DNA of 64,000 nt, taken from Octopus vulgaris. Lineage: Eukaryota. The DNA is taken from NCBI GenBank assembly GCA_951406725.2, contig OX597817.1, forward strand, positions 48,732,001 through 48,796,000, written 5' to 3'. Numbering within the stretch: position 1 is the stretch's first letter; each line of letters starts with the position of its first letter. Both the position numbers and the translations under genes were made by a program. The notes under the pieces were generated by a model. It was not told the origin of the DNA, did not search any database, and saw only the letters and a list, made by a program, of their open reading frames with translations. Shown piece by piece: positions 46,301 through 49,300 of this stretch.

Positions 46301-49300
46301 TTTAAAGAAGAATTCTGATCCTTCCAATAGGTTAGGACATAGAATGATACCTTTTAGTGAGCACATTGAGAAATGCGCAAAGCAACTACTGCCACAATTT
46401 TTAATCTTCCCATTTTACCAATGTGCTTTCGGATCATCAACACAAATGAGACTGAACAAGGAAACATTCTTCATTGAAAAGTACAAACCCAGACTCAACC
46501 ATCCGAACATACTGACACAGAGAAATTAACAAGGGAAAAGGAAAAAAAATTTTAAGCGATTATCTCCCTTACACCGGAAGAAATCACTCACTACCTCCCC
46601 TTATTTAGAAATCTCCTGAAAATAAACACAACGATAATTCCATGCAATATAAACATAACGTCACAAGAAATTTGAAAAGCTACACGCGAAACCGGTAATT
46701 TCTTTAAAAAAATTTTTAAATTATGGCATTTTAAGGAAAGGAAAAAAATTTTCCAATATTCTCCAGACATTTTGACACAAATATATATATTTTTTAACAT
46801 TTAAGCCTTCTGTCGTTTTTTCACACTTTACTATTTTCTTATATATTCACCCACGTGCTTTACCAAACAAACTTTCTTATCTATATATATATATATATAT
46901 ATATATATATATATATATATATATAAGGTTAATCCAAACGGGAAAACAGAAAAAACAACAACACGTGGAACAATTACAGTATTATTATTATTAGGCGCTC
47001 AGGAAAATGGAAGAAGGAGGGTATGACGTTTCGAGCGGAGCTCTTCGTCGGAAACATAGGAGAAAGAAAGATCCCGAGACGGGAGGACAGAGGAAAAAAA
47101 ATTGCAGGTAGTCTTCACGAGGTCACATACTGAAAAGACGGAAGTTGTAAAAAAGGAGGAAAATGTTTTTTAAAAACAGGAGAGCTGAATCAAAGAGGGA
47201 ATGGTAAAAAAGGTGTGCGAGAAAAATATATATATACATATATACATACATATATATATATATATATTTATATATATATATTTATATATATATATATATA
47301 TATATATATATATATATATATATATATATATATATATATATATATATATATATACATACATAGATAGATAGATAGATAGATAGATAGATAGATAGATAGA
47401 TAGATAGATAGATACTAGCTTAAGGTCACCCGCTCTACGCGCGGTTAAGAGTGTGGTTGTTACTTTCTGTTGCTTCCTTTCTGTATTTTATCACCACATT
47501 CTCCCTCTTTGTTTCTCTCTCCTTTCTCTCTCACTTTCCCACTCTCTTACTCTTCCTTTCTCTCGGACTCTCCCTCGCTTTCTCTTACTCTCTATCTTTT
47601 TCTATCTACCTCTCTTCCATTTATAAACAACAAAAGATCTTGAGTAAGTGGAGAAAAAAAATATTTTGAAAGATCAGTCATAAATATGAGACAGTGACAA
47701 CGGAAAGGTCTGCTTCAAGGCAGACAGCAAAACACTAACATTTAAAACTGACAGACGAACTTGCGAGCTGAATAAAAATAAAAAAATATTGGAAACCAAA
47801 GTTTGAAGGGATTGACTCTGAGGATAGTAGAGTCACCATGCTGGCATTTCTTAACGACGGACAGCAACGTAGTGACAGTTTAATGGTTGGTGTAAAATTC
47901 CTAAACACCAAGCTTTGAAGTGATTCTTTCTCACAAAAGTAGACTCACCATGGCAAGCATTCAAAACTTCTTCATCATAGACGGCAACACATTGACGATT
48001 TAAAGGCTGGGGCAAATTTTTTAGCTTGATGTAACAGAGAATTCCTAAACACCCGCTCCTGTAAATTTTAATACCCTTCAATCCCCATTTAGACCTCTTT
48101 TCACATTTTGGTTAATATAACCCGATTTCATTAGGGTCTACTCGGGCCACATTTTATAAGATGAGGAATTTTGTCCTAGAGGCCACGCCTTTCATTTGAG
48201 GAAAAAAATAGTTGTCATGCAAACTCGCCAGCTCTTTTAACATAGGCGTGCATATTTTCAGCTCAACCGACCACATAATGCACACATTATGAATATATAT
48301 ATATATATATATATATATATATATATATATATATATGCATTATATATATGTGCGTGTGTGTGTACGAATTATATATACAAATGTATACAAATTATATATA
48401 TATATATAAATTAAATTAGAGATAAAACCACTATAGGCAAATCAAACAGTAAAAAATAAACCAAACCATAAAAATAAAAATATAATATACAAAATATATA
48501 GAATATAAAATTAAAAAATTTAAATTATTTAAATTTAAAATAAAAATTATTAATTTATATTTATAATTTTAAAAAATATATATAACTATCAAAAAGTATT
48601 AAAAAGTTTAATATACATAAATACAGATATATACACTTTGTATATATACATTATATATACATATTTATATATAGAACACACACACACATATATAGATTAA
48701 CCTAATAAATATCTGATTCATAATATTTGTTCTCATGATTGTGTGGTGGTGGCGATAATAATTCTCTCTATGAATGCAAACAGACGTAGAGAGAGAGAGT
48801 GAAAGTGCTGTCGAAGGCAGGGAGGGGGAGAGAAAAAGGACGCTGTGAAACAACGTTATAAAGAGAAAGTGAAGGGGAAGTAGACGCTGTGAAACAACGT
48901 TATAGATAGAATGTGATGGGAAGGGAGGAAAGAGAGTGAGTGATGGAGGAAGACAGATACATAAAAGAATGAGAGTAGACTTGTCAAAGTACGTTTTTGT
49001 CCACTAGCATCCTCGCCTCATTTTACGTGTCCCTGTAAATTTTGGAGTCAATCCGACGGGATCTAGTGGCCTTTAAATCGTTCTCAATGCCAAAACCAGA
49101 CAAACAAACAAACAAACAAGCAAACAAACTTTTTCGCATTTCAGAATTATAATATATATATATATATATATATATATATATATATATCATTATATACATA
49201 CATATATATATAACTGTATTTGTGTGTGTATCTGTCCCCCTACCATCGCTTGATAACCGATGTTGATGTGTTTATGTCCCCGTAACTTAAAAGTTCGGGA

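What the first reader, a model, noticed from the sequence alone, without database searches (positions are those of the whole stretch)
46665..46704. Compensatory U3:A8 hammerhead core recurring in unrelated elements
Seen: four different contexts have UUGANAA instead of CUGANGA. They are UUGAUAA (11493), UUGAAAA (46672 and its inverted copy), UUGAGAA (31651-31689 minus) and UUGAUAA (30243-30288 minus, cleavage triplet mutated). Known: C3 and G8 form a Watson-Crick pair in the active hammerhead, so the double change keeps pairing. Inference: this looks like selected covariation rather than decay, and it marks a lineage of PLE ribozymes that standard CUGANGA searches miss. Both Penelope GIY-YIG ORFs in the window are followed by this variant.
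Basis: partly seen in the sequence, partly recalled or inferred. Interest (0 to 1): 0.75.

Follow-up and report, generated by a model that had tools for sequence, protein, structure and literature searches.

The report
Penelope hammerheads swapping their core pair
The U-A version of this small, likely self-cutting RNA motif at the ends of Penelope-type jumping genes is real but was already published; what is less ordinary is that the element lineage carrying it in this genome also has families with A-U, G-C and U·G at the same two paired positions, and cutting is untested for all of them.

Summary
All five U3:A8 motifs are present, but they are not four unrelated elements. 46672, 45961 and 31682 are one family, and the three window families sit in one Neptune-like Penelope clade (100/100). 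U3-A8 in Penelope hammerheads was published in 2014 (PMC4209133), and natural U3-A8 in 2011 (PMC3088659).

Copy-by-copy decay is excluded. In the 46672 family at least 1,862 of 2,038 matches are U3:A8, 3 are C3:A8 and none is C3:G8. The up to 173 U3·G8 matches form a young amplified subfamily derived from U3:A8.

U3:A8 is not a lineage marker overall: the tree needs 8 changes, at least 6 forced. Inside the window's clade, however, U3:A8 is the basal state, with nested A3:U8 and G3:C8 families. I did not find natural A3:U8 or G3:C8 Penelope hammerheads in the papers I could search.

Pairing rather than base identity appears selected. Cleavage is untested, and some amplified subfamilies carry core defects. 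This scan noted U3-A8 and G3:C8 families before, in this and other genomes.

The parts
46665..46704 (+). Minimal type I hammerhead motif, U3 (46672):A8 (46677). Helix I 7 bp, helix II 2 bp with 5-nt loop, palindromic 6-nt helix III, GUA triplet, predicted cut after 46697
   Evidence: predicted double-hammerhead dimer as minimum-energy fold of two copies; family of 2,038 matches
45930..45968 (-). Inverted copy of the same motif (U3 at 45961), element cut short just after helix I
   Evidence: (45930-46030 is 99% the inverse of 46603-46703)
46030..46342 (-). GIY-YIG endonuclease fragment on the inverted arm
   Evidence: Pfam GIY-YIG E=0.019, below the curated cut-off
46339..46529 (+). C-terminal end of the endonuclease on the direct arm, stop at 46527-46529
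46530..46881 (+). 3' untranslated end of the element with the hammerhead, ending in a 34-nt tail (46848-46881) and a (TA)n run
   Evidence: tail present at one end only in paired genomic copies
8929..10846 (+). Broken reverse transcriptase plus Cys-linker plus GIY-YIG coding region of an old Neptune-like element
11488..11529 (+). Hammerhead motif of that element, U3 at 11493; register of positions 8-9 ambiguous; helix III palindrome decayed in this copy
31651..31689 (-). Decayed U3:A8 motif (U3 at 31682) of an older subfamily of the 46672 family; helix II collapsed
30243..30288 (-). U3:A8 motif (U3 at 30283) of a third family; 5-bp helix II; U16.1 lost in this copy only
47020..47055 (-). Control: C3:G8 motif of a short repeat family (U4C in this copy)
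29971..30008 (-). Control: C3:G8 motif of an abundant family with A6U

Best explanation
These are minimal hammerhead motifs at the 3' ends of Neptune-like Penelope retrotransposons, inherited from source elements whose core pair is U3:A8, and they likely cut the element's RNA as dimers, with selection likely acting on pairing of positions 3 and 8 rather than on base identity. Shown: the motif, its place after the endonuclease, its copy numbers, the clade, and the order of states on the tree (C:G outside; U:A at the base; then U·G in a young subfamily, and A:U and G:C in two nested sister families). Inferred: two motifs on one tandem transcript pair through the 6-nt palindrome and cross-pair helix I to give the active fold; the element's own protein probably helps, as reported for an anole element; the cut frees or trims element RNA from a longer transcript. 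Most genomic copies, including three of the five in the window, are decaying after insertion.
For: Family counts with reversed controls of 0: 2,038, 192, 477, 213. With both positions left free, the first 100 listed rows are Watson-Crick in 94 (58 A:U, 36 G:C), 96 (all A:U) and 100 (79 U:A, 21 C:G). Sister subfamilies that are 84-87% identical differ by the double change. In family J the A:U/G:C label needs 2 changes, both forced by starred branches (34 of 41 copies kept). In 86 outside loci, 40 had a downstream hammerhead: 33 C:G, 5 U:A, 1 A:U, 1 G:G; one further locus has G:C upstream of its coding region (L269). On the 36-row tree position 3 changes 11 times and position 8 12 times, and all 36 states pair. 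U4-G5-A6, A9, GAAA and U16.1 persist across families whose 3' ends do not align. Helix I covaries between subfamilies. Two copies of 46672 fold into the cross-paired dimer at -16.7 kcal/mol; J and the 11493 family fold alike. Literature: U3-A8 active in vitro as cited in PMC3088659; in a Penelope hammerhead C3G or G8C abolishes cutting and the double change partly restores it, only with the element's protein (PMC11167929).
Against: No cleavage data. Amplified subfamilies carry defects: U3·G8 together with a one-base slip next to the cut site, U4C (3 loci), A6U and A13C (2 loci). The young U3·G8 copies are 98-99% identical, so this wobble did not stop spread. Helix II is only 2 bp. In 46672 the fold model pairs U3 with A17, like the C3-G17 trap described in PMC3884650. 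The K (A3:U8) and U3·G8 examples did not give the hammerhead dimer as their lowest-energy fold, and the 30283-family example lacked helix I. Minimal Penelope hammerheads cut poorly in vitro (PMC4209133) and cutting was not needed for insertion in vitro. Copy counts repeat a few source events and are not independent. The 36 tree rows were chosen by me from loci with a readable motif; rows without a motif or with an ambiguous one were left out.
Confidence: 0.7

Rival explanations
1. The motif is kept as a folded signal (for example for binding the element's protein) or is weakly selected, and cutting is dispensable; the pair covaries because the fold needs it, or selection is intermittent.
For: Amplified subfamilies with U3·G8 plus helix I slip, U4C, A6U and A13C; no motif found by my scan after the coding region of one family (L319, L320, L331); catalytic mutants did not affect insertion in vitro and no RNA ends were seen at the cut site in the anole element; Naiads spread without canonical hammerheads (PMC8557442).
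Against: The C3-G8 pair is a feature of the catalytically active conformation and is absent from the ground-state minimal structures (PMC3884650), so repeated compensation at 3:8 points to the active fold. NUH and GAAA are kept in nearly all lineages.
Confidence: 0.22
2. U3:A8 is AT-biased decay of C3:G8 copies after insertion.
For: Both changes are C-to-T and G-to-A transitions. Outside the clade, elements with weak pairs tend to be more AT-rich (median GC 0.33, n=7, against 0.39, n=20; p=0.10), so AT pressure may help the change arise in source elements.
Against: 0 C3:G8 and 3 C3:A8 among 2,038 matches. Intact 776-846 residue open frames carry U3:A8. U3·G8 is derived from U3:A8, not on the way to it. 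A3:U8 needs two transversions, and G3:C8 runs against AT bias.
Confidence: 0.03
3. U3:A8 arose once and marks a single lineage of Penelope ribozymes.
For: The window's three families and two more U3:A8 families lie in one clade, 100/100.
Against: U3:A8 rows pair with C3:G8 rows at 100/100 twice (L309 with L308, L261 with L270); the label needs 8 changes, at least 6 forced, and is one clade in 0 of 200 bootstrap trees. It also occurs in Schistosoma Cercyon elements and in a distant element and a short tandem repeat of this genome.
Confidence: 0.05

Closest known systems
U3-A8 minimal hammerheads of Cercyon Penelope-like elements, Schistosoma mansoni (Cervera and de la Pena 2014, PMC4209133; read: main text parts 1-2 of 4, supplement parts 1-2 of 3)
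   Same: Same core change, type I topology, short palindromic helix III, place in the terminal repeat, opposite-strand pairs a few hundred bases apart. Their figure S3 also lists one U3·G8 example (Saccoglossus).
   Different: Here in a clade with a Cys-linker (Neptune-like); helix II is 2 bp in the 46672 family with no extra base after A9; the palindrome is 6 nt; sister families carry A3:U8 and G3:C8, which none of the figure S3 rows I read shows.
Natural U3-A8 hammerheads (Perreault et al. 2011, PMC3088659; read: passages)
   Same: Natural covariation of positions 3 and 8; 2-bp stem II noted as common.
   Different: Only C-G to U-A is named in the passages read; no Penelope context there.
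Protein-assisted hammerhead of the anole Poseidon element PAc (Frangieh et al. 2024, PMC11167929; read: part 1 of 4 and passages)
   Same: Penelope terminal-repeat hammerhead; engineered C3G/G8C partly rescues cutting.
   Different: The G3:C8 pair there is a laboratory mutant; here it is the natural state of amplified subfamilies. Different clade.
Neptune clade of Penelope-like elements (as described in Craig et al. 2021, PMC8557442; read: passages)
   Same: Reverse transcriptase, CX2-5CxxC linker, C-terminal GIY-YIG, inverted 5'-truncated arm, 30-40-bp tail at one end, microsatellite targets.
   Different: No named Neptune reference was in my tree, so clade membership rests on architecture; Nematis elements share the linker.
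Non-LTR retrozymes (Cervera and de la Pena 2020, PMC7229834, passages; Li et al. 2026, bioRxiv 10.64898/2026.07.22.740005, part 1 of 5)
   Same: The 359-bp tandem repeat family F5 in this genome has one type I hammerhead per unit.
   Different: F5 has both C3:G8 and U3:A8 subfamilies; it is not in the window; circles were not tested.

Membership tests
Minimal type I hammerhead of Penelope-like elements | Core NUGANNA ... GAAA ... NUH with positions 3 and 8 able to pair | tested here: met
   46672 and 45961: U3:A8, GUA. Not met in the 30283 copy (U16.1 lost), met in its family.
Minimal type I hammerhead of Penelope-like elements | Open helix I and closed helix II starting with G10.1-C11.1 | tested here: met
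   46672: 7-bp helix I, 2-bp helix II with G-C. 11493 lacks G10.1-C11.1 and 31682 has lost helix II.
Minimal type I hammerhead of Penelope-like elements | Short palindromic helix III that allows a dimer | tested here: met
   Palindromes in all families; cross-paired dimer predicted for 46672, J and the 11493 family, not as lowest fold for the K and U3·G8 examples.
Minimal type I hammerhead of Penelope-like elements | Located in the terminal repeat after the coding region | tested here: met
   Found about 130-2,060 nt after the endonuclease, depending on family.
Minimal type I hammerhead of Penelope-like elements | Self-cleavage after position 17 | not testable with these tools
   Needs an assay; only assembled contigs were available for laying.
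Neptune clade of Penelope-like elements | Single frame with reverse transcriptase and C-terminal GIY-YIG endonuclease | tested here: met
   Open frames of 775-846 residues in relatives; RVT_1 E=8.7e-8; GIY-YIG over the cut-off in related genomic copies, under it in the window pieces.
Neptune clade of Penelope-like elements | CX2-5CxxC linker before the endonuclease | tested here: met
   Present in the window element and in L091, L093, L138.
Neptune clade of Penelope-like elements | Inverted 5'-truncated arm, one-sided tail, microsatellite target | tested here: met
   45930-46881.
Neptune clade of Penelope-like elements | Placement with named Neptune references, apart from Nematis | not tested
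   No named reference sequences came from the tools; the tree holds unnamed loci only.
Rfam hammerhead families | Match to a curated model | tested here: inconclusive
   None among the 150 listed of 235 matches at E<=10; 85 lower-scoring rows were not shown.

The most novel reading that the evidence does not exclude
One Penelope clade left the near-universal C3:G8 pair once and has since run through U3:A8, A3:U8, G3:C8 and a U3·G8 wobble in successful, amplifying source elements, all still cutting. This would be a natural replay of the laboratory double-mutant test of the hammerhead active site, with the element's own protein relaxing base identity.
Probability: 0.4. Interest if true: 0.6.

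Novelty: new variant of a known kind. Interest (0 to 1): 0.4.

Why it matters
The window's U3:A8 motifs alone add one more genome to a variant known since 2011-2014. The surrounding clade matters more. Whether Penelope hammerheads must cut is open: they cut poorly in vitro and one study found cutting unnecessary for insertion. Repeated paired changes at 3:8, a pair that forms in the active fold, are evolutionary evidence that the active fold is selected. Near-identical sister subfamilies (G:C against A:U, C:G against U:A, U:A against U·G) are ready-made test pairs. In practice, searches should leave positions 3 and 8 free and ask only for pairing; one such pattern found 1,406 purine-3 matches against 18 control matches in this genome.

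Tried and rejected
Rfam scan: only microsatellite-driven miRNA-type matches among the rows shown.

A link between L165's endonuclease fragment and the 46672 clade through the A6U family: dropped, because other repeats lie between them. The A6U family's own coding region looks distant (26-36% identity) and was not placed on the tree.

Origin of the U3 core by a 3-base register shift from the A6U family: considered, not supported; that family keeps the C3 register in helices I and II.

Expression: no RNA holder listed. Contigs of four runs showed none of 34 variable places inside 46657-46704, but contigs break at variants, so this is not used as evidence.

The supported tree uses 36 rows; near-duplicates, rows without a motif, L314 (ambiguous) and several outside rows were left out. 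No AU test was run. The first family J tree was distorted by truncated copies and was redone with 34 of 41 copies.

Papers not held: Przybilski and Hammann 2007, Lunse et al. 2016, Nelson and Uhlenbeck 2008, Martick and Scott 2006; their content is known here only through citing papers. Lunse et al., its supplements and the closed supplements of the 2026 preprint may already list A3:U8 or G3:C8 variants. Searches for natural A3:U8 or G3:C8: searches gave only laboratory mutants or nothing; nothing relevant; no hammerhead survey of this animal group.

Full report
Observation. The five motifs are in the sequence: U3 at 11493(+), 46672(+), 45961(-), 31682(-) and 30283(-). 46672 reads as a complete minimal type I hammerhead: 7-bp helix I, U3-U-G-A-A-A8-A, a 2-bp helix II closed by G-C, GAAA, a 6-nt palindromic helix III and a GUA triplet. 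45961 is its inverse copy in a head-to-head insertion (45930-46881) made of endonuclease fragments, the 3' end, a one-sided 34-nt tail and a (TA)n run. This is the layout described for Penelope-like elements (PMC8557442, passages). The other three motifs are decayed copies. The contexts are not all unrelated: 31682 and 46672 are subfamilies of one family. The window also has C3:G8-type motifs at 47051(-), 30003(-) and 32113(+).

What is known. Cervera and de la Pena 2014 report U3-A8 instead of C3-G8 in Schistosoma Cercyon elements, with about 1,300 hits. Their figure S3 has two U3:A8 rows and one U3·G8 row, and no row with a purine at position 3. Perreault et al. 2011 report natural U3/A8 and cite in vitro activity. 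The core claim of the finding is therefore published.

The genome (G000, 2.8 Gb) has 2,038 matches to the 46672 family pattern with C or U at 3 and A or G at 8, and 0 for the reversed control. Ten matches have a base other than U at 3: 3 C3:A8, 3 A3:A8, 3 G3:A8, 1 A3:U8, no C3:G8. 173 have U3 and a base other than A at 8; the 100 listed are all G8 and all share one loop II signature. So at least 1,862 are U3:A8. On a tree of 3' ends (34 rows, core masked, rooted on the 31682 subfamily) U3·G8 is one nested group and needs 1 change; its copies are 98-99% identical, as young as the 46672 subfamily. It is an amplified derivative of U3:A8, not decay from C3:G8. Most of these copies also lack one base beside the cut site, so helix I is slipped.

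Other families. A broader pattern gave 9,572 matches against 948 control, and a shorter-palindrome pattern 27,897 against 1,039, with several U3:A8 and C3:G8 families. Endonuclease searches tied motifs to coding regions: the 11493 family (28 of 30 loci aligned over the motif region, mostly U3:A8), the 30283 family with open frames up to 781 residues, a very young family with 776-846 residue frames, and a more distant C3:G8 family, H1. Scanning with positions 3 and 8 free revealed A3:U8 behind an endonuclease (L216/L326). A purine-3, pyrimidine-8 pattern gave 1,406 matches against 18; the first 100 are 90 A:U, 6 G:C, 3 A:C, 1 G·U. A G3 pattern gave 175 against 6; the first 100 are 63 G:C, 15 G·U, 14 G:A, 8 G:G, the non-G:C rows mostly single mutants of other families. 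With both positions free inside family-specific flanks: family J 192 matches, first 100 rows 58 A:U, 36 G:C, 6 other; family K 477, first 100 rows 96 A:U, 4 other; the 359-bp tandem family F5 213, first 100 rows 79 U:A, 21 C:G, none other. All three controls were 0. These class splits were counted by hand from the listings. Copies repeat a few source events, so they show the state of the source elements, not independent trials.

Tree. Coding regions were aligned to a profile built from 32 proteins and combined with outside loci. Of 86 outside loci, 40 had a downstream hammerhead under a scan blind to positions 3 and 8: 33 C:G, 5 U:A, 1 A:U, 1 G:G. In the 36-row maximum-likelihood tree, 13 elements of this genome form a clade at 100/100 with no C3:G8 member among them. 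Its deepest branches, including all three window families, are U3:A8. J and K form a nested group (95/86) with a purine at 3. Inside J, G:C subfamilies lie at the base under the root I chose and the A:U/G:C label needs 2 changes. Across the whole tree U3:A8 needs 8 changes, at least 6 forced; A:U and G:C need 2 each. U3:A8 thus marks the base of this clade but not one lineage overall. Elements with weak pairs outside the clade tend to be AT-richer, not significantly (p=0.10).

Mechanism. Shown: anatomy, position, copy numbers and paired changes. Predicted: two copies of 46672 fold into the cross-paired double hammerhead (-16.7 kcal/mol against -4.6 for a monomer), as do J and the 11493 family, while the K and U3·G8 examples prefer other folds. 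From the literature: the 3-8 pair forms in the active conformation (PMC3884650); in an anole Penelope element single C3G or G8C changes abolish cutting, the double change partly restores it, cutting needs the element's protein, and cutting was not needed for insertion in vitro (PMC11167929). Inferred: source elements are selected for an active fold, probably cutting tandem transcripts as dimers with protein help (0.7). The main rival is a structural or intermittently selected motif (0.22), supported by amplified subfamilies with U·G plus slip, U4C, A6U or A13C and by a possible U3-A17 mispair in 46672.

Novelty. U3:A8: known. Natural, amplified A3:U8 and G3:C8 Penelope hammerheads, and all four pairs in one animal's elements, were not found in searches, but four key papers were not held, among them Lunse et al. 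2016, and notation varies, so absence from print is not established. Earlier notes of this scan report U3-A8 and G3:C8 families in this genome and A3:U8 and G3:C8 in phages. I found the A:U and G:C families, before those look-ups; whether J is one of the families noted there was not checked. The host looks like a cephalopod by repeat content; that is from recall and was not tested. Verdict: real, known at its core, with a modest new extension; interest 0.4.

Noticed in passing
window 29971-30008 (-); G000 family: An abundant short family has A6U in an otherwise C3:G8 core; read three bases out of register it mimics U3·G8 and would inflate naive counts. A distant coding region lies about 890 nt upstream in L179/L312.
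   Followed up: partly
L316, L317, L318: A subfamily of the C3:G8 family H1 has U4C in all three loci fetched, one with a 574-residue open frame.
   Followed up: partly
L322, L323 (3' ends): Sister family of F3 has a U3:A8 motif in which GAAA reads GCAA (A13C) in both copies.
   Followed up: no
L314 (+233 after the first coding piece) and L227 (+245): Motifs with a 6-nt inner palindrome and one extra base between a C and U4; may be C3:G8 with an inserted base.
   Followed up: no
L327:4730 (-), L323:2423 (-), L313:6706 (-), L329:2108 (+): C3:G8 hammerhead-like motifs with longer helix III near Penelope elements, some on the opposite strand; may belong to other repeats.
   Followed up: no
window 32105-32155 (+): C3:G8 hammerhead candidate with 5-bp helix II and a palindromic helix III, family not traced.
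   Followed up: no
window 30764 (-): Decayed remnant homologous to L076, which has a U3:A8 core; possibly a sixth U3 motif in the window.
   Followed up: partly
L102 (G000:C1 near 20.00 Mb), L190, L454-L460: Tandem 359-363-bp repeats with one hammerhead per unit, like non-LTR retrozymes, with C3:G8 and U3:A8 subfamilies.
   Followed up: partly
L138-L145: A very young Neptune-like family with many identical endonucleases and a 3' end of about 2 kb made largely of GT/AT microsatellite-like sequence.
   Followed up: partly
L094, L019, L033: Elements of one Penelope family inserted into the 3' end of another, placing two different hammerheads about 100-600 nt apart on one strand.
   Followed up: no
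window 18900-27300: Large satellite with a 12-13-bp AT-rich unit; gives many false hammerhead-like hits.
   Followed up: no
window 12250-12830, 35020-36930, 50320-53610 and others: Dispersed repeat with an internal 184-bp period in many copies on both strands.
   Followed up: no
families J and K: G3 copies mostly have A at the cut position and the A3 family K has C, so base 17 cannot pair with base 3; the 46672 and F3 families have U3 with A17, which can.
   Followed up: partly
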